Source: Escherichia coli
Lineage (GTDB): Bacteria; Pseudomonadota; Gammaproteobacteria; Enterobacterales; Enterobacteriaceae
DNA length: 64,000 bases
Strand: one strand, 5' to 3'
Assembly (NCBI RefSeq): GCF_024502345.1
Contig: NZ_JALDNN010000001.1
Of the stretch, positions 4,697 to 52,565 are shown piece after piece; position 1 is the stretch's first letter, and every line of letters begins with the position of its first letter. The translations under genes and the position numbers were made by a program. The notes below the pieces were generated by a model that had not been told where the DNA came from, did no database searches, and saw nothing but the letters and a program-made list of their open reading frames with translations.

Positions 4697-6148
4697 GTGA
4701 AAACACTAAATCGTCGTGATTTTCCCGGTGCACAGTATCCAGAACGTATCATTCAGTTTGGTGAAGGTAACTTCCTGCGCGCCTTTGTTGACTGGCAAAT
4801 TGATCTCCTGAATGAGCACACCGATCTGAATTCTGGTGTGGTCGTTGTTCGTCCGATTGAAACTTCATTCCCGCCGTCACTGAGCACGCAGGATGGTCTG
4901 TACACCACCATTATCCGTGGCCTGAATGAGAAGGGGGAAGCGGTCAGCGACGCGCGTCTGATTCGCTCTGTTAATCGTGAAATCAGCGTCTACAGTGAAT
5001 ACGATGAATTCCTGAAACTGGCGCACAATCCGGAAATGCGCTTTGTTTTCTCTAACACCACCGAAGCGGGTATCAGCTACCATGCGGGCGATAAATTCGA
5101 TGACGCGCCAGCGGTAAGCTATCCCGCAAAACTGACCCGTCTGCTGTTCGAACGTTTTAGCCATTTCAACGGTGCGCTGGATAAAGGTTGGATCATCATC
5201 CCGTGTGAGTTGATTGACTACAATGGCGACGCGTTGCGTGAACTGGTGCTGCGCTATGCGCAAGAGTGGGCACTGCCAGAAGCATTTATTCAATGGCTGG
5301 ATCAGGCTAACAGCTTCTGTTCTACGCTGGTGGACCGTATCGTTACCGGCTATCCGCGTGATGAAGTGGCTAAACTGGAAGAAGAACTGGGTTATCACGA
5401 TGGTTTCCTCGACACCGCTGAACACTTTTACCTGTTTGTGATTCAGGGGCCGAAATCCTTAGCGACTGAACTGCGTCTGGACAAATATCCGCTCAACGTG
5501 CTGATTGTTGACGATATTAAACCGTATAAAGAACGCAAAGTGGCAATTCTCAACGGTGCACACACCGCGTTGGTGCCGGTGGCGTTCCAGGCAGGGCTGG
5601 ATACCGTAGGTGAAGCGATGAACGATGCTGAAATTTGCGCATTCGTTGAAAAAGCCATCTACGAAGAAATTATTCCGGTACTGGATTTGCCACGCGATGA
5701 ACTGGAATCTTTCGCCAGTGCAGTCACCGGGCGTTTCCGTAACCCGTACATTAAGCATCAGCTGCTGTCTATCGCGCTCAACGGTATGACCAAGTTCCGT
5801 ACCCGCATCCTGCCGCAGCTGCTGGCAGGGCAGAAGGCAAACGGCACACTTCCGGCGCGCCTTACTTTCGCATTAGCGGCATTGATTGCGTTCTATCGTG
5901 GTGAGCGTAACGGAGAAACATATCCGGTACAGGACGATGCTCACTGGCTGGAACATTATCAGCAACTCTGGAGTCAGCATCGTGACCGTGTTATCGGTAC
6001 CCAGGAACTGGTAGCGATTGTGTTGGCAGAAAAAGACCACTGGGAGCAGGACCTGACGCAAGTGCCTGGTCTGGTCGAGCAGGTTGCTAATGACCTGGAT
6101 GCGATTCTTGAAAAAGGGATGCGCGAAGCTGTACGTCCGTTGTGCTAA
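4697..6148 (+). CDS. uxaB: altronate oxidoreductase (tagaturonate reductase)
   Basis: 483-aa ORF, mannitol dehydrogenase family, GTG start. Confidence 0.9.
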
Positions 6149-9292: not shown

Positions 9293-10315
9293 TCAGAAAT
9301 CGTATTTGCCGATATTCTCTTTGTTGAATATCACGCGCTCCGGTAACAGTACGATGCCATTACCATCCGCTTCGTAGTCATAGCCCTGGACGCTGTTTGG
9401 CGAGACTTCCACCTGACCTACGCCCTGAATATCCAGCTTGTCGCCCGTTTTCATTGATCCTTTTTTCAATAATGCATCCGCGACATAAACTGAAATTTTG
9501 CCTTGCTGAACCACATCCCACAGGCCAAATTCTTTCACCGTGCCGCGTTCCACATATGGATGCATCACGTTTGGCGTACTGAATCCGACAATCGCAACTT
9601 TGTCATTTTTCAGGTTTTCTGCGGCTTGTGCGGCAGCGGGCAGGGCATTGGCATCGGGGGCGATAATGGCGTCGAGATCGCTATACGCTTTTAATATTCC
9701 TTCTGCGGTTTGTAATGATTTAGTGGCATCGTTATAGCCAAACTGCGTAGTGACAATTTCCCAGCCAGGATGCTCTTTGGCGATTTTCGCTTTCGCTTCT
9801 TTCACCCACTGGTTTTGGTCCGTAACGGTGGGGCTTGAGTAGAAAAACGCGACTTTGGCTTTGTCTTTATTCACCTGACGCGCCGCCATATCCACCAACA
9901 TACCTCCCAACTGGGCGGGCGTTCCCTGATTAATGTAGTAAGAGCGGCACTCCGGTTTAGTATCAGAGTCCCAGGTCAGCACTCTCACACCACGTTGCAT
10001 GGCGCGTTTCAGTGCCGGACACAAGCCATCAGGCGAAACCGCAGAAACGATAATGGCGTTATAACCTTGATTGACGAAGTTATTAATCAACTGTACCTGA
10101 CCAGAAACACTGGGTTCTGTCGGCCCGTCGTAGGTCACATCAACGCCCAGCTCTTTACCCGCTTGTTGTGCGCCGTTGCCACCGCTGGTAAAAAATCCCA
10201 CGCCAACCAGTTTGGGAATAAATGCAATACGCTCTGCGGCCTGCACATTCATAGAGATTGCGGCAATGCCAAGAGCGCTAAGTAAGGCGATTTTCTTAAA
10301 GCGATGAAGTGTCAT
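9293..10315 (-). CDS. lsrB: AI-2 periplasmic binding protein
   Basis: 340-aa ORF with signal peptide, sugar-binding protein fold. Confidence 0.9.
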
Positions 10316-11319: not shown

Positions 11320-12347
11320 TATGCAGCCTCCCGTTTTTTACCTGACGAAGCGGGTTTAACGGATGGCGGTGGCGTCATAAAGCGGGCATATTTTTGCCGC
11401 CGCAGATTACGTTCCAGCGCGCAACGCAGGCGTCCATCAAACACCAGCACCGCCAGCAGCACGAGGCCCGCGATAAAATCATTCCACCATGCCGGAATGC
11501 GCAACAGCACCAGTACACTATCGATCTGCGTCAGGAACCATGCGCCGAGTACCGCACCGATGATCGCACCGGAACCGCCGAGCAAACTAATGCCGCCCAG
11601 CACGCAGGCTGCAATTGCTTTCATCTCCAGCCCGGTACCGGTCTGGTTGGGGATAAAACCAATCTGCGAAGCAAACACAATCCCCGCCAGTGCCGCCATG
11701 CAGCCGTTCAACGAAAATGCCACAATGCGAATGGCTTCCGTACGAACGCCCAGTTGACGAGCGCCCTGTAAATTATCGCCCGTGGCATAAAAACTGCGTC
11801 CAAACGCCGTCTTCGCCAGCAGCCAGGCCATAAATGCCACCAGAATTATCGTCAACCAACCAATTGCTGAAACGCCAAGCAGCAGCGGGGCGGAGAGCTG
11901 TTTCAGTTCGGCGGGTAACCCTTCAATCCATTTGCCGCCAGTCCACAGCAACATAATGCCTCTGTACAACCCTAACGTGCCAAGGGTGGCAACAATGGCA
12001 GGGATCTTTAGCCACGCGACCAGGACACCGTTGAAAAATCCCGCGAGCAAACCAAGCAGTAAAGTCGCGACACAGGCAACAGGTAGTGAATATCCTGCGT
12101 TCAGTAACATCCCCAACAGCACCGCGCACATTCCGGTAATCGAACCCACTGAAACATCAATATTGCGCGTAAGCATTACCAGCGTCGCGCCCATTGCCAG
12201 CAGGATCAGGATTTGCGCGCTGCTATAAACCATGGTCAGCGTTTGCACACTTAAATACTGGCGGTCGAGAAAACCGGGTAATACAAACAGCAGCACCACC
12301 GCCAGCAGTGCCGTGATTTCACGGTTGTTCTGAATAAACTTCAGCAT
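11319..12347 (-). CDS. lsrC: AI-2 ABC transporter permease
   Basis: 342-aa polytopic membrane ORF. Confidence 0.9.
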
Positions 12348-24902: not shown

Positions 24903-25169
24903 ATGATGAGCTTTCAGAAGATCTATAGCCCAACGCAATTAGCGAATGCAATGAAACTGGTTCGCCAGCAAAATGGCTGGACGCAGAGCGAGCTGGCGAA
25001 AAAAATTGGCATTAAGCAGGCGACAATTTCCAATTTCGAAAACAACCCTGACAATACCACGCTCACGACATTTTTTAAGATTTTACAGTCGCTTGAACTC
25101 TCAATGACACTATGCGACACGAAAAATGCCTCGCCAGAATCAACAGAACAGCAAGATCTGGAGTGGTAA
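24903..25169 (+). CDS. hipB: HipB antitoxin (XRE-family HTH)
   Basis: 88 aa from MMSFQKIYSPTQLANAMKLVRQ; stop overlaps the hipA start. Confidence 0.9.
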   Translation: MMSFQKIYSPTQLANAMKLVRQQNGWTQSELAKKIGIKQATISNFENNPDNTTLTTFFKILQSLELSMTLCDTKNASPESTEQQDLEW

Positions 25170-26491
25170 TGCCTAAACTTGTCACTTGGATGAACAACCA
25201 GCGGGTAGGCGAGTTAACGAAGTTAGCCAACGGCGCGCACACCTTTAAGTATGCACCGGAGTGGTTAGCCAGCCGTTATGCCAGACCGTTGTCACTTTCG
25301 CTGCCATTGCAGAGGGGGAATATCACCTCAGATGCCGTATTTAACTTCTTCGATAACCTGTTACCCGATAGCCCGATTGTACGTGACCGGATCGTTAAAC
25401 GTTATCATGCTAAATCCAGACAACCGTTTGATTTATTGTCAGAAATAGGGCGAGACAGCGTTGGTGCCGTAACGTTATTACCCGAAAATGAAACCATAAC
25501 GCGCCCGATAATGGCATGGGAAAAGCTTACTGAAGCCAGGCTTGAAGAAGTATTAACGGCTTATAAAGCAGATATCCCTCTGGGCATGATTAGAGAAGAA
25601 AATGACTTTCGCATCTCGGTTGCTGGCGCGCAGGAGAAGACAGCGCTGCTTAGAATAGGCAATGACTGGTGCATTCCGAAAGGAATAACGCCGACGACGC
25701 ACATCATTAAATTACCGATTGGCGAAATCAGGCAGCCCAATGCGACGCTCGATCTCAGCCAAAGCGTTGATAATGAGTATTACTGTCTGCTGCTGGCGAA
25801 AGAACTTGGGTTGAATGTTCCGGACGCAGAAATCATTAAAGCGGGAAGGGTGCGCGCGTTAGCGGTCGAACGTTTTGACAGGCGTTGGAATACTGAGCGA
25901 ACGGTTTTACTTCGCTTGCCACAGGAGGATATGTGTCAGACATTCGGTTTACCTTCATCTGTGAAATATGAATCAGATGGAGGCCCAGGCATCGCGCGGA
26001 TCATGGCGTTTTTGATGGGGTCCAGCGAGGCGCTTCGCGATCGTTATGATTTTATTAAATTCCAGGTCTTCCAGTGGTTGATTGGCGCAACGGATGGCCA
26101 TGCAAAAAACTTCTCCGTATTTATTCAGGCTGGCGGCAGTTATCGACTCACGCCATTTTACGACATCATTTCAGCATTTCCGGTCCTTGGCGGTACGGGA
26201 ATACACATCAGCGATCTCAAACTGGCAATGGGGCTTAACGCATCCAAAGGCAAAAAAACGGCAATCGATAAAATTTATCCGCGACATTTTTTGGCGACAG
26301 CAAAGGTGCTGAGATTCCCGGAAGTGCAGATGCATGAAATCCTAAGTGACTTTGCCAGAATGATTCCGGCAGCACTGGATAACGTGAAGACTTCATTACC
26401 GACAGATTTTCCGGAGAACGTGGTGACGGCAGTTGAAACCAATGTGTTGAGGTTGCATGGACGGTTAAGCCGAGAATACGGTAGTAAGTGA
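25169..26491 (+). CDS. hipA: HipA serine/threonine kinase toxin
   Basis: 440 aa from MPKLVTWMNNQRVGEL, matches recalled HipA. Confidence 0.9.
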   Translation: MPKLVTWMNNQRVGELTKLANGAHTFKYAPEWLASRYARPLSLSLPLQRGNITSDAVFNFFDNLLPDSPIVRDRIVKRYHAKSRQPFDLLSEIGRDSVGAVTLLPENETITRPIMAWEKLTEARLEEVLTAYKADIPLGMIREENDFRISVAGAQEKTALLRIGNDWCIPKGITPTTHIIKLPIGEIRQPNATLDLSQSVDNEYYCLLLAKELGLNVPDAEIIKAGRVRALAVERFDRRWNTERTVLLRLPQEDMCQTFGLPSSVKYESDGGPGIARIMAFLMGSSEALRDRYDFIKFQVFQWLIGATDGHAKNFSVFIQAGGSYRLTPFYDIISAFPVLGGTGIHISDLKLAMGLNASKGKKTAIDKIYPRHFLATAKVLRFPEVQMHEILSDFARMIPAALDNVKTSLPTDFPENVVTAVETNVLRLHGRLSREYGSK

Positions 26492-26738
26492 GATATGGGG
26501 TTTGGTCGTTGTTAATGAGCACGACAATCATGACCGCCAACGACTGGATTCTTCCTTGGTTTATACTGGTGCGCATAATGTATATTATGTTAAATCACCT
26601 ACAGTGACAAATAAGTTCATAAGCCTCTCCCACTAACTGATAAATCAATACGTTAGAATTTCGGATCGCCATCTCGTTTCTTGCATTAGGTACAGAGTAC
26701 ATTCTCTTCATGTCCATGGTAATTGTGAGGTAAATGTC

Positions 26739-28133
26739 GTGTATTCAGTAAACCAGTTGGTTATCTCGGGCTGCAAACGGCAATGGATCCTGATGGACAC
26801 GGAAACCTCTATGCCGTTGCTGTATCCCCTTAGGTACCATATTGACCATTTAGCTTTCCGCTCATTGTCCACGCAGTCAGCTTCACTGCAATCTGTGAAG
26901 TTTTTTTACGAATTCTGGAATCAAAAGTATGGTGTCTCGTTTTGCTACAGCTTCTATTCATCTGGCCACAATCCAGACATCGCCGTCAGCGAAATGCCCG
27001 CATTTTGGCTGTATCTGGAAAATGGCCACAACGTCCAGTCAAATGTGTTGTCTTTAACAAGAGCCACCAAAGCCAGTAGCTTAACTCACGCAGCCAGAGT
27101 TCGTGCCGTGATTCATTTTCTTTCTTTTTTGATTAACACTTACATATCACCCGCATACCGGGACGACACGCCCAAAGCATTAACCCTTTTGGCCTCGCGT
27201 CTACACACCCGTTTGCAGCTTTGTCGGGATAATTATCGAACGCTTACACCAAACAAATTTTCGCTACGTAGTCACAACAGCCAGGGGTTTCAGAGTCTGT
27301 CTGGTGCAATGGTGCTCAGCCTGTATGGGATAATAGCCCCCTCTTCTGCCCAAAAGCATAATCCACTAAACCCTTTCCCTTCCGGACATCTTCAGTTCCG
27401 CAATTTTTTAATTATTCGCCTGTTATTAAATTATGGTTTACGAATAGGTGAGCTATTGTTGTTAGAGTGCAGTTCAATCAAACCAAATTTAAGAGGTGAT
27501 AAATTCAGTTTGATTGTGACAACTGTCGATGGGGGGTACGAACCAAGAAAAAATGCGCCGTCTCTCAAAAATGCATGGGCTAACCGTGTATTAGAACTCG
27601 ACAAGCAAGATTATATTTATTTAAGTATTTATATAGAAAAAATCCGGCCCAAAACACATAAGCACGATTTCATCTTTATATCGAGTCAACAGTCAAGAAA
27701 ACCATTGTCCTATACATCAGTTCATTCTATTTTTTCGAAAGTCGATAAGGTCTTTACTGATCAACACCCAGAGTACAAATCGCCCTTGTACTCTGATTCG
27801 TTGCAACGATTGACACCACATACAACCCGACATACTTGGGCCTTTTTGACATTGCAAAGAATATGGCATTCAAAATATTTGAGAAATCAGCTAAACAAAA
27901 CACACTTTGTTGCTGGAGTCCCTTCCCTCACAGGAGTAATGGAAGAAGCAAAAGATGAGCTACGGCTGATTGGAGGATGGAGCCCGACTAGTCAAATGCC
28001 TGATCTATATGCAAAACGCTTCCTTTCTGAGCAGGCTAATACTGCCAATATCCAACGTATTATTCAAGATAATGCTGCGCTGCAGAATACGTTAAATACA
28101 ATAATGGATAAATATAACGATGAGTTCATTTGA
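26739..28133 (+). CDS. tyrosine-type site-specific recombinase with a long N-terminal extension
   Basis: 464-aa ORF; C-terminal catalytic motifs GLRIGELLLLE, HTTRHTWAF and GGWS...LYAKRF; AT-rich; true start uncertain. Confidence 0.65.
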   Translation: MYSVNQLVISGCKRQWILMDTETSMPLLYPLRYHIDHLAFRSLSTQSASLQSVKFFYEFWNQKYGVSFCYSFYSSGHNPDIAVSEMPAFWLYLENGHNVQSNVLSLTRATKASSLTHAARVRAVIHFLSFLINTYISPAYRDDTPKALTLLASRLHTRLQLCRDNYRTLTPNKFSLRSHNSQGFQSLSGAMVLSLYGIIAPSSAQKHNPLNPFPSGHLQFRNFLIIRLLLNYGLRIGELLLLECSSIKPNLRGDKFSLIVTTVDGGYEPRKNAPSLKNAWANRVLELDKQDYIYLSIYIEKIRPKTHKHDFIFISSQQSRKPLSYTSVHSIFSKVDKVFTDQHPEYKSPLYSDSLQRLTPHTTRHTWAFLTLQRIWHSKYLRNQLNKTHFVAGVPSLTGVMEEAKDELRLIGGWSPTSQMPDLYAKRFLSEQANTANIQRIIQDNAALQNTLNTIMDKYNDEFI

Positions 28134-28308
28134 ACATACACTAAAATTTGATGAAGAGAGTTCAATTTACCCTGCTGATTTAGCTCAGGCAATCATTGAA
28201 CTTAAGGTTCCTGAGCGGATTTATCTAAAGACGGCTGTGGGGTTTGATGATAAATACATAATTAATAAAGGGAGCAAATGGACTTTTGATTACTCTGGTA
28301 GTCGGTGA
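28120..28308 (+). CDS. hypothetical small protein (62 aa) overlapping the recombinase stop
   Basis: ORF overlaps the recombinase 3' end by 14 bp; no recognisable domain. Confidence 0.3.
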   Translation: MSSFEHTLKFDEESSIYPADLAQAIIELKVPERIYLKTAVGFDDKYIINKGSKWTFDYSGSR

Positions 28309-28404
28309 TACCTTGTTTTTAATCAAGATAACATCTCAAATAAGCTAAACAAATATATTTGTTTCAAATATGCATCGACAAGATTCCCAACCAGGCTTCC
28401 AGCG

Positions 28405-28693
28405 TTGCATCTTGACTGGAGAAAAGCCATCACATATTGCCGGGAATATGGCGGATTTTCGTTTAGTACGCTCCGACTATTTATAGAAAGAGATAACATT
28501 GACAATGCTGTTTTTTATTCTGTGTTGTTCGGGTTAAAAATACTTTGTTCTGAAGCATTCCCGGGTTTCAGTCTTGAAGATTATGATGATCTGGAGTTCG
28601 TCCCTCGACCGCATCTCGATCGTTGGGGAGTTTATCAGGAAATCGATAATGTTCTTGATCCTCTCGAAAAAAATATGATTTGTAATGGGCTGT
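28405..28693 (+). pseudogene. hypothetical protein whose frame runs into IS903 copy 3 (3' end truncated)
   Basis: 99-aa ORF 28405..28704 whose last residues are encoded by the IS903 end. Confidence 0.3.
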
Positions 28694-29751
28694 GGCTTTG
28701 TTGAATAAATCGAACTTTTGCTGAGTTGAAGGATCAGATCACGTATCTTCCCGACAACGCAGACCGTTCCGTGGCAAAGCAAAAGTTCAAAATCACCAAC
28801 TGGCCCACCTACAATAAAGCCCTCATCAACCGTGGCTCCATAACTTTCTGGCTGGATGATGAAGCTATTCAGGCCTGGTATGAGTCAGCAACACCTTCTT
28901 CACGAGGCAGACCTCAGCGCTATTCTGACCTTGCCATCACGACTGTGCTTGGTCATTAAACGCGTATTCAGGCTGACCCTGCGCGCTGCGCAGGGCTTTA
29001 TTGATTCCATTTTTTCTCTGATGAACGTTCCGCTACGCTGCCCGGATTACAGCTGTGTCAGCAGGCGGGCAAAGTCGGTTAATGTCAGTTTCAAAACGCC
29101 CACCCGGGGTGAAATCGCACACCTGGTAATTGATTCCACCGGGCTGAAGGTCTTCGGTGAAGGCGAGTGGAAAGTCAAAAAGCATGGCCAGGAACGCCGC
29201 CGTATCTGGCGTAAGCTGCATCTCGCCGTTGACAGTAAAACACATGAAATCATCTGCGCTGACCTGTCGCTGAACAACGTTACGGACTCAGAGGCCTTCC
29301 CCGGGTTAATCCGGCAAACCCACCGGAAAATCAGGTCAGCCGCCGCCGATGGCGCTTACGATACCCGGCTATGTCACGATGAACTGCGGCGTAAGAAAAT
29401 CAGCGCGCTTATCCCTCCCCGAAAAGGTGCGGGTTACTGGCCCGGTGAATATGCAGACCGTAACCGTGCAGTGGCTAATCAGCGAATGACCGGGAGTAAT
29501 GCGCGGTGGAAATGGACAACAGATTACAACCGTCGCTCGATAGCGGAAACGGCGATGTACCGGGTAAAACAGCTGTTCGGGGGTTCACTGACACTGCGTG
29601 ACTACGATGGTCAGGTTGCAGAGGCTATGGCCCTGGTACGAGCGCTGAACAAAATGACGAAAGCAGGTATGCCTGAAAGCGTGCGTATTGCCTGAAAACA
29701 CAACCCGCTACGGGGGAGACTTACCCGAAATCTGATTTATTCAACAAAGCC
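28694..29751 (+). mobile_element. IS903-type insertion sequence, copy 3, 1058 bp, frameshifted transposase, no target duplication
   Basis: Extra T (gtgcttggtcatt versus gtgctggtcatt) splits the transposase into ORFs 28726..28959 and 28856..29695; flanks atgggctgt and cctgctgga differ. Confidence 0.9.
28726..29695 (+). pseudogene. IS903-type transposase, frameshifted
   Basis: Two overlapping ORFs together cover the transposase. Confidence 0.85.
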
Positions 29752-31251: not shown

Positions 31252-31273
31252 ATTAATAGAAATGGGAGGTCAC

Positions 31274-31603
31274 ATGTTTAGCGTTGTTTATCACCCGGAA
31301 GCCAGGGAAGAAGCCACAGCATTACCCGTAAAAATCAGGGTGAAGTTTGACCGTCTCATCGGCAAACTGGAGTATGACGCCCGATTACTGCGGGAGCCGG
31401 ACACGAAGCCCCTGGGCGATGGACTTTTTGAGATCCGCACGATGGGGACGGACATAGCCAGGGGAATCTGGGTATACCACAAAGGCAATACCATCATCAT
31501 GCTCCGTGTTTTCATCAAGAAGTCACAGAAAACGCCAGCGAAAGAAATCGATCTCGCCAAAAAGCGGTTAGCGGAGGTACTTAATGAAACTGGTAAGCCA
31601 TAA
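31274..31603 (+). CDS. higB: RelE/ParE-superfamily toxin (HigB-like)
   Basis: About 110 aa from MFSVVYHPEAREEA; toxin precedes and overlaps an XRE-HTH partner by 20 bp, the HigBA arrangement. Confidence 0.7.
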   Translation: MFSVVYHPEAREEATALPVKIRVKFDRLIGKLEYDARLLREPDTKPLGDGLFEIRTMGTDIARGIWVYHKGNTIIMLRVFIKKSQKTPAKEIDLAKKRLAEVLNETGKP

Positions 31604-33940: not shown

Positions 33941-34358
33941 AGGACTTCCTTATTTCTTGTCATCTCAGAAAACGGTCACTCTTCGAAAAAATAACCAGAA
34001 TAAAAGCGATTCTTTCGCTTTTTTTATTGCGCCTGGTTACGCAGTCATATTCATTTTAAGTCGGGATGCTCCTTATTTAAATATCCAACCCTACTATCGC
34101 ATTTCTATCTGGCATTATTCTGTGATGGTGTTTCGATATTCACACTCCCTGTGCCAATCCTTTCTTATCGACAGTAGGAAACTTCCTCCGGCTATTCTGC
34201 TGAACACGATTAGGGGCACTGTTGCAAAGTTAGCGATGAGGCAGCGTTTTGTCTTATTCAAAGGCCTTACATTTCAAAAACTCTGCTTACCAGGCGCATT
34301 TCGGGTGATGCTGCCAACTTACTGATTTAGTGTATGATGGTGTTTTTGAGGTGCTCCA

Positions 34359-34634
34359 GTGGCTTCTGTTTCTATCAGCTGTCCCTCCTGTTCAGCTACT
34401 GACGGGGTGGTGCGTAACGGCAAAAGCACCGCCGGACATCAGCGCTATCTCTGCTCTCACTGCCGTAAAACATGGCAACTGCAGTTCACTTACACCGCTT
34501 CTCAACCCGGTACGCACCAGAAAATCATTGATATGGCCATGAATGGCGTTGGATGCCGGGCAACCGCCCGCATTATGGGCGTTGGCCTCAACACGATTTT
34601 CCGCCATTTAAAAAACTCAGGCCGCAGTCGGTAA
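34359..34634 (+). CDS. insA: IS1 InsA
   Basis: 91 aa [30 protein letters not shown]... Confidence 0.9.
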
Positions 34635-35056
34635 CCTCGCGCATACAGCCGGGCAGTGACGTCATCGTCTGCGCGGAAATGGACGAACAGTGGGGATACG
34701 TCGGGGCTAAATCGCGCCAGCGCTGGCTGTTTTACGCGTATGACAGGCTCCGGAAGACGGTTGTTGCGCACGTATTCGGTGAACGCACTATGGCGACGCT
34801 GGGGCGTCTTATGAGCCTGCTGTCACCCTTTGACGTGGTGATATGGATGACGGATGGCTGGCCGCTGTATGAATCCCGCCTGAAGGGAAAGCTGCACGTA
34901 ATCAGCAAGCGATATACGCAGCGAATTGAGCGGCATAACCTGAATCTGAGGCAGCACCTGGCACGGCTGGGACGGAAGTCGCTGTCGTTCTCAAAATCGG
35001 TGGAGCTGCATGACAAAGTCATCGGGCATTATCTGAACATAAAACACTATCAATAA
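34553..35056 (+). CDS. insB: IS1 InsB reading frame (expressed as InsAB' by frameshifting)
   Basis: 167-aa [24 protein letters not shown]... overlapping insA. Confidence 0.9.
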
Positions 35057-35066
35057 GTTGGAGTCA

Positions 35067-35747
35067 TTACCGCATTTCGCCCAGGGGATCACCATAATAA
35101 AATGCTGAGGCCTGGCCTTTGCGTAGTGCACACATCACCTCAATACCTTTGATGGTAGCGTAAGCCGTCTTCATGGATTTAAATCCCAGCGTGGCGCCGA
35201 TTATCCGTTTCAGTTTGCCATAATCGCATTCAATCACGTTGTTCCGGTACTTAATCTGTCGGTGTTCAACGTCAGACGGGCACCGGCCTTCGCGTTTGAG
35301 CAGAGCAAGCGCGCGACCATAGGCGGGCGCTTTATCCGTGTTGATGAATCGCGGGATCTGCCACTTCTTCACGTTGTTGAGGATTTTACCCAGAAACCGG
35401 TATGCAGCTTTGCTGTTACGACGGGAGGAGAGATAAAAATCGACAGTGCGGCCCCGGCTGTCGACGGCCCGGTACAGATACGCCCAGCGGCCATTGACCT
35501 TCACGTAGGTTTCATCCATGTGCCACGGGCAAAGATCGGAAGGGTTACGCCAGTACCAGCGCAGCCGTTTTTCCATTTCAGGCGCATAACGCTGAACCCA
35601 GCGGTAAATCGTGGAGTGATCGACATTCACTCCGCGTTCAGCCAGCATCTCCTGCAGCTCACGGTAACTGATGCCGTATTTGCAGTACCAGCGTACGGCC
35701 CACAGAATGATGTCACGCTGAAAATGCCGGCCTTTGAATGGGTTCAT
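35067..35747 (-). CDS. tnpA: IS26 transposase, C-terminally truncated by the IS1 insertion
   Basis: MNPFKGRHFQRDIILWAVRWY...GDPLGEMR then stop; the recalled native protein continues LVSRVFEM. Confidence 0.85.
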   Translation of the reverse strand: MNPFKGRHFQRDIILWAVRWYCKYGISYRELQEMLAERGVNVDHSTIYRWVQRYAPEMEKRLRWYWRNPSDLCPWHMDETYVKVNGRWAYLYRAVDSRGRTVDFYLSSRRNSKAAYRFLGKILNNVKKWQIPRFINTDKAPAYGRALALLKREGRCPSDVEHRQIKYRNNVIECDYGKLKRIIGATLGFKSMKTAYATIKGIEVMCALRKGQASAFYYGDPLGEMR

Positions 35748-51507: not shown

Positions 51508-52565
51508 GGCTTTGTTGAATAAATCAGATTTCGGGTAAGTCTCCCCCGTAGCGGGTTGTGTTTTCAGGCAATACGCACGCTTTCAGGCATACCTGCTTTC
51601 GTCATTTTGTTCAGCGCTCGTACCAGGGCCATAGCCTCTGCAACCTGACCATCGTAGTCACGCAGTGTCAGTGAACCCCCGAACAGCTGTTTTACCCGGT
51701 ACATCGCCGTTTCCGCTATCGAGCGACGGTTGTAATCTGTTGTCCATTTCCACCGCGCATTACTCCCGGTCATTCGCTGATTAGCCACTGCACGGTTACG
51801 GTCTGCATATTCACCGGGCCAGTAACCCGCACCTTTTCGGGGAGGGATAAGCGCGCTGATTTTCTTACGCCGCAGTTCATCGTGACATAGCCGGGTATCG
51901 TAAGCGCCATCGGCGGCGGCTGACCTGATTTTCCGGTGGGTTTGCCGGATTAACCCGGGGAAGGCCTCTGAGTCCGTAACGTTGTTCAGCGACAGGTCAG
52001 CGCAGATGATTTCATGTGTTTTACTGTCAACGGCGAGATGCAGCTTACGCCAGATACGGCGGCGTTCCTGGCCATGCTTTTTGACTTTCCACTCGCCTTC
52101 ACCGAAGACCTTCAGCCCGGTGGAATCAATTACCAGGTGTGCGATTTCACCCCGGGTGGGCGTTTTGAAACTGACATTAACCGACTTTGCCCGCCTGCTG
52201 ACACAGCTGTAATCCGGGCAGCGTAGCGGAACGTTCATCAGAGAAAAAATGGAATCAATAAAGCCCTGCGCAGCGCGCAGGGTCAGCCTGAATACGCGTT
52301 TAATGACCAAGCACAGTCGTGATGGCAAGGTCAGAATAGCGCTGAGGTCTGCCTCGTGAAGAAGGTGTTGCTGACTCATACCAGGCCTGAATAGCTTCAT
52401 CATCCAGCCAGAAAGTTATGGAGCCACGGTTGATGAGGGCTTTATTGTAGGTGGGCCAGTTGGTGATTTTGAACTTTTGCTTTGCCACGGAACGGTCTGC
52501 GTTGTCGGGAAGATACGTGATCTGATCCTTCAACTCAGCAAAAGTTCGATTTATTCAACAAAGCC
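51508..52565 (-). mobile_element. IS903-type insertion sequence, copy 4, 1058 bp, same frameshift as copy 3, intact 9-bp target duplication
   Basis: Flanks cctcgtttc (51499..51507) and cctcgtttc (52566..52574); same extra base as copy 3. Confidence 0.9.
51564..52533 (-). pseudogene. IS903-type transposase, frameshifted
   Basis: ORFs 51564..52403 and 52300..52533. Confidence 0.85.

What the first reader, a model, noticed from the sequence alone, without database searches (positions are those of the whole stretch)
26739..28693. Tyrosine recombinase with an unusual N-terminal extension and two small downstream ORFs, next to hipA
The 464-aa ORF has a recognisable tyrosine-recombinase catalytic core but about 230 residues of N-terminal sequence I cannot assign. 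It is followed by a 62-aa ORF that overlaps its stop and by a third ORF truncated by IS903 copy 3. The block is AT-rich and lies at the exact edge of the accessory region, so it may be the integrase of an integrated element whose far end was lost to IS-mediated rearrangement, with a possible attachment site in 26492..26738.
Basis: partly seen in the sequence, partly recalled or inferred. Interest (0 to 1): 0.55.

Follow-up and report, generated by a model that had tools for sequence, protein, structure and literature searches.

The report
Decayed mobile island inserted beside dif
The recombinase gene is the surviving left end of a four-gene "GInt"-type mobile island that an insertion sequence cut off, and its relatives always sit beside dif, the site where bacteria untangle their chromosome copies, a target not reported for this kind of element in the papers I could search.

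Summary
The 464-aa ORF (26739..28133) is real and is a tyrosine recombinase with every catalytic residue conserved. Its "unassignable" N-terminus is the family's enlarged core-binding domain.

The two small downstream ORFs are one gene. It is a second recombinase, inactivated by a CGA>TGA nonsense codon (28306) and cut by IS903B at 28694.

Intact relatives carry four overlapping genes: recombinase, recombinase, a ~788-aa recombinase-fold protein and a ~144-aa protein. Cargo follows, including Gabija, Avs2 and CBASS. This is the ginABCD layout of GInt islands, and the window protein matches Pseudomonas stutzeri GinA (E 4e-14).

The landmark is not hipA. Window 26568..26595 is the E. coli dif site (28/28), and the element starts 2 nt after its XerD arm. 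In 14 of 14 related loci (seven genera, six plasmids) ginA lies 140-210 nt from a dif or plasmid Xer-type site, always on the XerD side.

attL/attR/attB comparison puts the crossover in GTTAAAT, outside the central region where XerCD cut. Integration is therefore probably done by the element's own recombinases, and dif stays intact.

The window copy lacks ginC, ginD and attR, so it is an immobile remnant. I found no paper in the searchable library linking GInt-type elements to dif.

The parts
26568..26595 (+). Chromosomal dif site. XerC arm GGTGCGCATAA at 26568-78, central TGTATA at 26579-84, XerD arm TTATGTTAAAT at 26585-95. It is intact and is the target beside which the element integrated.
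   Evidence: It matches the published E. coli dif at 28/28 positions (PMC3025954). It is the only match of 18/28 or better in the window. It is single-copy in 5223 of 5426 E. coli genomes. Its 20-mer marks one site per genome in more than 120 proteobacterial species.
26589..26597 (+). attL core GTTAAATCA, the stretch shared by attL, attR and the empty site. The inferred crossover lies within GTTAAAT. The last chromosomal base is 26597.
   Evidence: Alignment with the K-12 empty site and with E. coli CH423. attR of two complete elements ends ...CAACATAAGTTAAATCA|TGTCTG.
26598..26738 (+). Non-coding left end of the element. It holds a GTTCAT motif at 26615-20, which ends 25 nt after dif. It holds a core-like repeat TGATAAATCA at 26638-47 and a Shine-Dalgarno GAGG at 26727-30. 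The first two are probable recombinase-binding sites; a promoter is inferred.
   Evidence: The (A/C/G)TTCAT-type motif keeps the same spacing from the Xer site in all 14 related loci, exact or with one change or a 1-nt offset. Identity to CH423 is 88% here but 100% in the hipA flank.
26739..28133 (+). ginA-like tyrosine recombinase, 464 aa from the GTG start (446 aa from the ATG at 26793). The gene is intact.
   Evidence: BLASTP to the P. stutzeri DSM 4166 GinA fragment gives 25% identity over 269 aa, E 3.8e-14. dN/dS is 0.15. The GTG start is supported by the SD sequence, by 462-465-aa homologues and by a confident beta-hairpin over residues 2-20.
28120..28693 (+). ginB-like second tyrosine recombinase, now a pseudogene. 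Codons 1-191 of ~521 remain.
   Evidence: tblastn with the CH423 521-aa integrase covers aa 1-192 at 80% identity in one frame. The full-length relative has Pfam Phage_integrase at E 2.2e-10. dN/dS is 0.13 across the stop codon.
28306..28308 (+). Premature TGA at codon 63 of ginB. The same codon is CGA (Arg) in relatives.
28694..29751 (+). IS903B copy that truncates ginB. It is 1058 bp and carries a 1-nt insertion relative to the other copies in the window.
   Evidence: Inverted repeat GGCTTTGTTGAATAAATCG at 28694. It is 99.7-99.9% identical to annotated IS903B.
34298..44730 (.). Scattered pieces that match the distal part of the CH423 island at 99.1-99.8% identity: IS1, IS3, a Tn3 remnant, and the MBL-fold hydrolase / GlxA / ester cyclase / recombinase module. 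They are probably rearranged remains of the same island's cargo. Membership is uncertain.
   Evidence: blastn of the CH423 element against the window.

Best explanation
Window 26598..28693 is the decayed left end of a GInt-type mobile genomic island. Such islands carry a ginABCD-like module: two catalytic tyrosine recombinases, a large recombinase-fold protein and a small helical protein. This one integrated immediately beside the chromosomal dif site, on the XerD-arm side.

Proposed mechanism in intact elements:
1. The island excises as a circle.
2. The attachment site on the circle (...CAACATAAGTTAAAT(CA)|CCTAC...) mimics the outer part of the XerD arm.
3. The element's own recombinases exchange strands within GTTAAAT. 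These are the outermost 7 nt of the XerD arm of dif, or of a plasmid Xer-type site.
4. A perfect dif is therefore left at attL, and a degenerate half-arm at attR.
5. Probable binding sites sit at fixed spacing inside both ends (GTTCAT-type motifs).

Because the XerD arm is nearly invariant in Proteobacteria and is also present on large plasmids, the element has a safe landing site in almost any replicon. It carries defence cargo between chromosomes and conjugative plasmids.

In this window ginA is intact. ginB has a nonsense codon and is cut by IS903B. ginC, ginD, the proximal cargo and attR are gone. The copy should therefore be immobile unless helped in trans, and it lacks a right end in any case.

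Shown here: gene identities, junctions, the dif identity, the 14/14 association with Xer sites, and the decay of this copy. Inferred: who catalyses the reaction, the exact cleavage positions, and the role of the motifs.
For: Recombinase identity and fold.

One pseudogene rather than two ORFs.

The four-gene operon with conserved sizes and overlapping gene ends is seen in these loci:
- E. coli CH423 and E. coli PSJ-12/L007.
- Salmonella, Acinetobacter, Proteus, and Pleionea, where an IS interrupts it.
- Plasmids.

Links to GInts:
- Homology to experimentally studied P. stutzeri GinA is E 3.8e-14 for the window protein and 3.3e-16 for the CH423 protein. GinA is the best reciprocal partner. The GinC fragment matches the equivalent position of the 788-aa protein at E 0.008.
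- The third protein has no Pfam domain, but its model's best PDB matches are all tyrosine recombinases: Cre, XerH, Flp and XerD, probability 0.97-0.99 for the top dozen.
- The flanking imperfect direct repeats are TATGTTAAATCA and TAAGTTAAATCA. The last 150 nt are 69% AT against 52-55% for the whole element.

Links to dif:
- dif identity.
- A Xer-type site lies upstream of ginA in the same orientation in 9 of 9 loci first examined and in 5 of 5 further plasmids. The XerD arm is 11/11 in every case, and the central regions differ between plasmids.
- A 55%-divergent GinA family uses the same E. coli site.
- 87 and 117 complete E. coli genomes carry the two alleles.
- GinA follows dif in 4-5 of 120 species-level dif loci.

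Decay of this copy.
Against: No experiment was done. Excision, circles and the catalytic roles are inferred from sequence only.

Homology of the second and third proteins to Pseudomonas GinB and GinC is weak: E 0.064 and 0.008, in a tiny search space and with partial published fragments.

The third protein of this clade keeps an apparently complete R...HxxRH...Y signature (R250, H506, R509, H510, Y541 invariant). Published GinC lacks the first arginine or the whole RHRY motif.

The crossover position rests on two complete elements, both at the same E. coli site.

A role for XerD or FtsK as cofactors cannot be excluded.

The dif-flanking position could in principle arise from selection after less specific insertion, although junctions that fall within 2 nt of the XerD-arm end across genera argue against that.
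Confidence: 0.8

Rival explanations
1. [quoted passage not shown] Host XerC/XerD would integrate it at dif, and the element's recombinase genes would be cargo or accessory.
For: It abuts dif exactly, and its right end carries a partial XerD-arm-like sequence, ATAAGTTAAAT. IMEX elements are known to leave a functional dif (background section of PMC3025954).
Against: The identity shared by attL, attR and attB is GTTAAAT(CA), at the outer edge of the XerD arm. XerCD exchange strands at the borders of the 6-nt central region, not there (for where Xer strand transfer occurs). attR has no XerC arm or central region, matching dif at only 11-13 of 28 positions, all at the outer end. Plasmid target sites have five different central regions. 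The four-gene recombinase module is conserved and under purifying selection from Acinetobacter to E. coli. In GInts all four genes are needed for movement.
Confidence: 0.08
2. [quoted passage not shown]
For: SEs also have four core genes, including a non-catalytic recombinase-fold protein and a small auxiliary protein. They occur in Gammaproteobacteria, Enterobacterales included.
Against: The gene order differs. Here the second protein is a Pfam-positive integrase (E 2.2e-10) and the large Pfam-negative protein is third. That is the GInt order, not intA-tfp-intB. The first protein matches P. stutzeri GinA. No 19-bp terminal inverted repeats (the C and C' motifs of SEs) were seen between the ends.
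Confidence: 0.04
3. It is the lone integrase of a conventional prophage, ICE or IME remnant (an Int plus Xis type element), as a plain reading of the annotation 'site-specific integrase' suggests.
For: It has a tyrosine recombinase fold, lies at the edge of an accessory region and is AT-rich.
Against: It is always followed by a second recombinase, a 780-790-aa protein and a 142-148-aa protein with overlapping gene ends. No phage or conjugation genes are present in compact complete elements such as the 11.5-kb PSJ-12 island.
Confidence: 0.03
4. The intact ginA has been retained because it now serves the host, for example by acting at or near dif, rather than being a remnant awaiting decay.
For: ginA is intact while its neighbour is broken. 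It sits 144 nt from dif.
Against: The damage is recent. A copy 99.8% identical has an intact ginB codon 63 and no IS, so there has been little time for ginA to decay. The measured dN/dS reflects divergence between functional lineages. Nothing indicates a function without GinB, GinC and GinD.
Confidence: 0.03

Closest known systems
GInts (Genomic Islands with three Integrases; ginABCD; also called the Tn6571 family). Sources: Bardaji et al. 2017, PMC5385486; Idola et al. 2023, PMC10214605; reported as defence carriers in E. coli by Hochhauser et al. 2023, PMC10121019.
   Same: A four-gene operon sits at the 5' end in the same order: catalytic recombinase, catalytic recombinase, large recombinase-fold protein annotated as hypothetical, small helical protein. 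Protein sizes are comparable: P. stutzeri GinC is 736 aa and GinD 132 aa, against 788 and 144 aa here. Cargo starts right after the fourth gene. The 3' end is short and AT-rich. The element is flanked by 10-12-nt imperfect direct repeats and inserts site-specifically. GinA homology is E 4e-14.
   Different: The target is dif or a Xer-type site, not the ABC-transporter, ssb, nrdA or HU-2 sites listed for GInts. GinA is only ~25% identical to the Pseudomonas reference. The third protein keeps an R/HxxRH/Y signature that published GinC lacks. The window copy is a truncated remnant.
IMEX elements (CTXphi, VGJphi, TLCphi, gonococcal genetic island)
   Same: They integrate at dif and leave a functional dif. 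They carry a sequence resembling part of dif.
   Different: IMEX elements encode no recombinase and rely on XerCD crossover at the central region. This element brings its own recombinase module and recombines at the outer edge of the XerD arm.
IS1202-family 'dif site hunters' (Harmer et al. 2023, PMC10132070; Siguier et al., bioRxiv 10.1101/2022.12.17.520857)
   Same: They target Xer sites on chromosomes and plasmids regardless of the central region, in a fixed orientation and at a fixed distance, without destroying the site. They are found on the opposite side of the very same sites in several loci examined here.
   Different: They are DDE-transposase insertion sequences placed 5 bp from the XerC arm. 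The present element is a tyrosine-recombinase island placed 0-2 nt from the XerD arm.
[quoted passage not shown]
   Same: They are multi-recombinase integrative elements with a small auxiliary protein and selected target sites.
   Different: SE gene order is intA-tfp-intB-srap. Tn554 has no large third protein. Neither is reported at dif.

Membership tests
Tyrosine recombinase superfamily (for the 464-aa protein) | Catalytic R-K-H-R-(H/W)-Y residues in a C-terminal catalytic domain that follows a helical core-binding domain | tested here: met
   R235, K277, H361, R364 (plus H365), W414 and Y424 are invariant or nearly invariant in 43 homologues. Pfam PF00589 matches at E 1.4e-7. R235 and H361/R364 align with the catalytic residues of XerA and XerD. 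The AF2 model (pLDDT 83.5) matches full-length Cre, XerH and Tn1549 Int. The assignment of K277 is by position and by comparison with Pst GinA, so it is inferred.
GInt | ginABCD operon at the 5' end: two catalytic recombinases, a third large recombinase-like protein and a small fourth protein | tested here: met
   Met in intact relatives: 446/521/788/144 aa in E. coli CH423, 448/528/781/145 in Acinetobacter, 463/516/788/144 in E. coli PSJ-12, 446/521/788/142 in Salmonella, and in plasmids. The test applies to the element family, not to the window copy.
GInt | A complete operon present in this copy. All four genes are needed for mobility. | tested here: not met
   Only ginA and codons 1-191 of ginB (with a nonsense codon) remain. 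tblastn finds no ginC or ginD in the window. It is therefore a remnant of a member, not a functional member.
GInt | Protein homology to reference GinA, GinB and GinC. Bardaji's criterion is BlastP E<0.1 for three consecutive genes. Hochhauser's is at least one integrase at E<1e-5 plus the gene organisation. | tested here: inconclusive
   Only partial P. stutzeri DSM 4166 sequences, printed in the paper's supplement, were available. GinA gives E 3.8e-14 and 3.3e-16, which is met and satisfies Hochhauser's criterion. GinB gives E 0.064 and GinC E 0.008, but in a five-sequence search space. Full-length reference proteins could not be fetched.
GInt | Third protein has a recombinase fold but lacks catalytic residues (first Arg, or the RHRY motif) | tested here: inconclusive
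   On fold: the best PDB matches are all tyrosine recombinases, but weakly (E 7e-3, TM 0.1-0.25; the model has low confidence over residues 508-573). On residues: R250, H506, R509, H510 and Y541 are invariant in 22 homologues, and the C-terminal four of them fall in the stretch that aligns with XerD residues 236-287, which include its catalytic H244, R247 and Y279 (residue numbers from my own knowledge of XerD). The loss of catalytic residues is therefore not seen in this clade.
GInt | Flanked by 10-11-nt imperfect direct repeats, with a short AT-rich 3' end | tested here: met
   attL is TATGTTAAATCA and attR is TAAGTTAAATCA (11 of 12 identical) in CH423. The same attR occurs in PSJ-12. The last 150 nt are 69% AT against 52-55% overall. 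The window keeps only attL.
GInt | Excises as a circle and integrates site-specifically | not testable with these tools
   Site specificity is shown by comparative data. Circles and excision need experiments.
IMEX | No recombinase of its own; an attP with XerC and XerD arms; crossover at the dif central region by XerCD | tested here: not met
   The element encodes two to three recombinases. attR matches dif only in the outer XerD arm. The shared core is GTTAAAT(CA). Plasmid targets have unrelated central regions.
SE (strand-biased circularizing integrative element) | Core gene order intA-tfp-intB-srap | tested here: not met
   The second gene is a Pfam-positive integrase and the third is the large protein with no Pfam hit.
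Tn554 family | tnpA-tnpB-tnpC only (two recombinases and a small protein) | tested here: not met
   A conserved ~780-790-aa third gene lies between the second recombinase and the small protein.

The most novel reading that the evidence does not exclude
This clade of GInt-type islands is a third, mechanistically distinct class of "dif hunters", alongside Xer-dependent IMEX elements and IS1202-family insertion sequences. It uses its own multi-recombinase machine to recombine at the outer XerD arm. It may read XerD, or the XerCD-FtsK complex bound at the site, as part of its target. That would explain why every target has a perfect XerD arm while the central region and the XerC arm vary. If so, essentially every proteobacterial chromosome and many conjugative plasmids carry a ready-made landing pad for defence and resistance islands. 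Orphan Gin proteins next to dif might also interfere with chromosome dimer resolution.
Probability: 0.2. Interest if true: 0.85.

Novelty: new variant of a known kind. Interest (0 to 1): 0.6.

Why it matters
Taken alone, the window feature is a dead mobile-element end and is ordinary. Its value is what it shows about the family.

- **A new target for this kind of element.** GInt-type islands are poorly understood multi-recombinase elements that carry anti-phage systems (Gabija, Avs2, CBASS). Their relatives occur on mcr-1 IncHI plasmids. In this clade they are tied to dif and to plasmid Xer sites.
- **An explanation for a published hotspot.** The "hipA-ydeT" defence hotspot of E. coli (hotspot 20 of Hochhauser et al. 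2023) is in fact the dif site.
- **A route between replicons.** The element could move between chromosomes and plasmids of many genera without harming the host.
- **A testable system.** A short, defined target, the 7-nt outer part of the XerD arm, can be mutated to ask how a four-protein tyrosine recombinase machine selects its site, and whether it cooperates or competes with XerCD and FtsK.

Tried and rejected
- I looked in the supplementary tables of Idola et al. 2023 for the relatives' protein accessions and for E. coli replicon accessions, to see whether their GInt survey had caught this family. Nothing was found, but the GInt table is truncated in the library, so this is uninformative.
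- I tried to learn how Hochhauser et al. classified the occupants of hotspot 20. Only the hotspot definition (hipA/ydeT, occupied in 62 of 783 genomes) was retrievable.
- NCBIfam gave no family-level model for any of the four proteins. There were only sub-threshold Xer and "integrase_1" hits and a weak GmtY hit (E 0.0019), so the gamma-mobile-trio is not a match.
- Pfam and PADLOC found nothing for the third and fourth proteins.
- Sequence search of the PDB gave only marginal XerA/XerD hits. The fold comparison was needed.
- I first read the 31-35 nt shared by the E. coli, Salmonella and metagenome left flanks as carried-over flank or as part of the element. I rejected this once the sequence was recognised as dif.
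- I searched the window for the K-12 sequence beyond the site and for an attR copy. Both are absent.
- I looked for terminal inverted repeats between the left and right ends. None of 8 nt or more was meaningful.
- One literature search on "integrated at dif" phrases was swamped by matches to the word "different" and gave nothing usable.
- The Pseudomonas serbica dif locus has only a truncated GinA and no recognisable ginC.
Full report
**What is at the coordinates.** The 464-aa ORF at 26739..28133 (+) exists. Pfam recognises only a Phage_integrase domain over aa 218-373 (E 1.4e-7). In an alignment of 43 full-length homologues with 35-89% identity, R235 (GLRIGEL), K277, H361-x-x-R364-H365, W414 and Y424 are invariant or nearly so. 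Profile alignment puts R235 and H361/R364 on the catalytic residues of XerA and XerD. The block is AT-rich: 58-62% AT against 52% for hipA. IS903B starts at 28694.

**The N-terminus is not an odd extension.** The whole family is 445-465 aa long. The first 205 codons evolve under purifying selection, with dN/dS 0.21 against 0.12 for the catalytic half, measured against an allele that is 88% identical. An AlphaFold model built on the 43-sequence alignment has mean pLDDT 83.5. It shows a beta-hairpin (residues 2-20), helices to about residue 200 and then the catalytic domain. Foldseek aligns ~400-425 columns of the model with full-length, two-domain Cre, XerA, XerH and Tn1549 Int at probability 1.0. 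The "unassigned" part is therefore an enlarged core-binding domain.

A GAGG lies 8 nt upstream. Homologues of 462-465 aa are common, and RefSeq itself uses the long start for a sister allele. RefSeq's 446-aa start at 26793 cannot be excluded.

**The two small ORFs are one broken gene.** 28120..28308 and 28405..28704 are in the same frame. They align without gaps to codons 1-192 of a single 521-aa "site-specific integrase" in E. coli CH423 at 80% amino-acid identity. The break is a CGA>TGA change at 28306-28308. A metagenome scaffold that is 99.8% identical over 2131 nt has CGA there and reads on past the IS insertion point, so both lesions are recent. dN/dS across the stop codon is 0.13. The full-length protein has a Pfam integrase domain at E 2.2e-10.

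**Intact relatives.** 87 of 5426 complete E. coli genomes carry the region at ~88.5% identity. In strain CH423, hipA is followed by four genes with overlapping ends encoding proteins of 446, 521, 788 and 144 aa. After these come two HTH genes and cargo that PADLOC identifies as Gabija (GajA and GajB), Avs2 and candidate system PDC-S50.

The same four-gene block, with the same sizes, recurs in several places:
- Acinetobacter guillouiae, where GinA is 40% identical.
- A second E. coli family with only 55% identical GinA, carrying CBASS, present in 117 complete genomes.
- Salmonella enterica, 95.8% DNA identity to the window, again with Gabija.
- Proteus and Pleionea.
- IncHI-type conjugative plasmids, two of which also carry mcr-1.

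**Which kind of element.** The order is catalytic recombinase, catalytic recombinase, large protein with no recognisable domain, then small protein. That is the ginABCD order of GInts (Bardaji et al. 2017). It is not the intA-tfp-intB-srap order of SEs, nor the three genes of Tn554. P. stutzeri GinC and GinD are 736 and 132 aa.

The supplement of the GInt paper prints parts of the P. stutzeri DSM 4166 proteins. BLASTP with those fragments gave these results:
- The GinA fragment matches the window protein at 25% identity over 269 aa (E 3.8e-14) and the CH423 protein at E 3.3e-16. It does not match the second or third proteins.
- The GinC fragment (aa 481-540) matches the equivalent position (486-543) of the 788-aa protein at E 0.008.
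- The GinB fragment matches weakly, at E 0.064.

The 788-aa protein has no Pfam domain, but the best PDB neighbours of its model are all tyrosine recombinases. The complete elements have imperfect direct repeats and an AT-rich 3' end. This meets the operational GInt definition used for E. coli by Hochhauser et al. 2023, which requires one integrase at E<1e-5 plus the gene organisation.

One departure was seen. In this clade the third protein keeps R250, H506-x-x-R509-H510 and Y541 invariant, in a stretch that aligns with the part of XerD holding its catalytic histidine, arginine and tyrosine. Published GinC lacks the first arginine or the RHRY motif.

**Boundaries, and the real landmark.** Compared with the K-12 empty site, chromosomal sequence ends at 26597 (...TTATGTTAAATCA|CCTACAG). 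The flank is 100% identical to CH423, while the element is only 88% identical.

The 28 nt at 26568..26595, GGTGCGCATAATGTATATTATGTTAAAT, are the experimentally defined E. coli dif site. I reached this after noticing that Salmonella and a metagenome copy share 31-35 nt of "flank". The sequence is single-copy in E. coli. Its 20-mer also occurs once per genome in more than 120 proteobacterial species, and near the mid-point of two of the three complete chromosomes among them. The published defence-island hotspot 20, "hipA-ydeT", occupied in 62 of 783 genomes, is thus the dif site.

**The association with Xer sites is general.** In all nine loci first examined, a dif or dif-like site (21-28 of 28 matches) lies 140-200 nt upstream of ginA. 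It has the same orientation each time, with the XerD arm towards the element. These loci were three E. coli alleles, the near-identical metagenome copy, Salmonella, Yersinia, Proteus, Acinetobacter, Pleionea and an IncHI1A plasmid.

Five further plasmid copies, with GinA only 32-69% identical, were then tested. All five have a XerC-like arm, a six-nucleotide centre that differs from plasmid to plasmid (TGTACG, CAAAGA, CGAGGA, CGTGCA, GATGGA) and a perfect XerD arm TTATGTTAAAT. A GTTCAT-like motif, with CTTCAT and GTTTAT variants, ends about 25 nt after the site in every locus.

That these are genuine Xer sites is supported independently. IS1202-family ends sit exactly 5 nt from the XerC arm at several of the same sites, and that is the published behaviour of those "dif hunters". 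Among 120 species-level dif loci, four or five have a GinA homologue right after dif: a Citrobacter, Acinetobacter lwoffii, and two or three Pseudomonas species.

**Who does the recombination.** Two complete elements at the E. coli site give the right junction. CH423 (28.9 kb) ends ...CACTCAACATAAGTTAAATCA|TGTCTG. PSJ-12 (11.5 kb) ends ...GTTCAACATAAGTTAAATCA|TGTCTG.

The sequence common to attL, attR and attB is GTTAAATCA in CH423 and GTTAAAT in PSJ-12. This is the outermost part of the XerD arm. attR has no XerC arm or central region, matching dif at 11-13 of 28 positions, all at the outer end. XerCD exchange strands at the central region, so they cannot have made these junctions. The differing central regions of the plasmid targets argue the same way.

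The most likely mechanism is therefore GInt-type recombination by the element's own proteins. The partners would be an attachment site that mimics the outer XerD arm and the XerD arm of any Xer site, and the reaction leaves dif intact at attL. This is an inference from sequence. A helper role for XerD or FtsK is not excluded.

**State of the window copy.** ginA is intact. ginB is a pseudogene. ginC, ginD, the Gabija/Avs2-type proximal cargo and attR are absent.

Five IS903B copies lie in the window. One pair has inverted the 5' part of the autotransporter gene. Another inverted pair brackets 21304..28693, a segment that includes hipBA, dif and the remnant. Core sequence resumes only at 58419, inside yddB, so about 16.9 kb from yneL to yddA is missing. 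Pieces matching the distal CH423 island at 99.1-99.8% identity are scattered over 34298..44730 among IS1, IS3, IS110, IS5 and Tn3 genes. All four gin genes are required for GInt movement and the right end is gone, so this copy should be immobile.

**Novelty.** GInts in E. coli, and this hotspot, are already in the literature. The targets listed for GInts are an ABC-transporter gene, ssb, nrdA, HU-2 and others, with unrelated att cores. No paper in the searchable library contains both GInt/SE/Tn554 terms and dif as a target. The two papers on IS1202 dif hunters do not mention recombinase islands. The library omits most subscription journals, so priority cannot be excluded. I rate the family as a new variant of a known kind (a dif-targeting GInt clade), and the window feature itself as a decayed member of it.

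Noticed in passing
L005 ~400-506; L138 ~5200-5324; L137 ~5680-5789; L038 ~9760-9842; L010 and L136 just left of the Xer-like site: An ISNCY/IS1202-type insertion sequence ends exactly 5 nt from the XerC arm of the same Xer sites that carry the GInt-type element on their XerD side. The IS ends read ...AAATGG(G)TTCTAACA or ...TGCTGTTACA. This matches the published "dif hunter" behaviour of the IS1202 family. One Xer site can therefore be flanked by two unrelated site-seeking elements.
   Followed up: partly
L001 15178-17544 (788-aa third protein) and 21 homologues (alignment A4): The GinC-like protein of this clade keeps R250 (in a TGFRSIE box), H506-x-x-R509-H510 and Y541 invariant. The C-terminal residues lie in a stretch that aligns with the part of XerD holding its catalytic residues. 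The literature describes GinC as lacking the first arginine or the RHRY motif. It may be catalytically competent here. The model is poorly confident over residues 508-573.
   Followed up: partly
window 16836-17892, 20247-21303, 28694-29751, 51508-52565, 57362-58418: There are five IS903B copies in 64 kb. The segment 17893-20246 (5' part of the ECSE_1600-type autotransporter gene) is inverted between the first two copies. The inverted pair at 20247-21303 and 28694-29751 brackets hipBA, dif and the remnant. Recombination between that pair would flip dif relative to the chromosome arms.
   Followed up: partly
window 28694-58418: About 16.9 kb of core next to dif is missing: yneL, the ydeQRST fimbrial genes, ydeP, safA-ydeO, ydeN, ydeM and yddA, which include acid-resistance regulators. 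Core sequence resumes inside yddB at 58419. The gap is filled with IS5, IS110 (two copies), IS2/IS3, IS1 and Tn3 transposase genes, a serine recombinase and a 5'-truncated ynfE-like reductase gene (55178-57250).
   Followed up: partly
L003 6554-8148; L011 15882-17473; L010 14936-16527; L134 11894-13061; L004 14740-15529: A conserved small module follows the fourth gene in E. coli, Salmonella and the IncHI1A plasmid L010: an HTH gene on the opposite strand, a ~185-aa protein with no PADLOC hit, and a second HTH gene. The Klebsiella plasmid shows the first two within the stretch examined, and Acinetobacter has a reduced version (a 69-aa HTH gene and a 164-aa protein). It may be the element's regulatory switch rather than cargo.
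   Followed up: no
window 26638-26647 and the right ends of L003 (about 29230-29330) and L133 (about 12330-12440): A core-like repeat TGATAAATCA lies 50 nt inside the left end. TGGTTCATGAAGT(A/G)AAT motifs lie about 100 nt inside both sequenced right ends. These look like arm-type or accessory binding sites of the recombination machinery.
   Followed up: no
window 31262-31603: A 113-aa ORF resembling a RelE/HigB-type (Gp49-like) toxin lies in the IS-rich accessory region downstream of the IS903B copy. I judged this by eye from the translation only.
   Followed up: no
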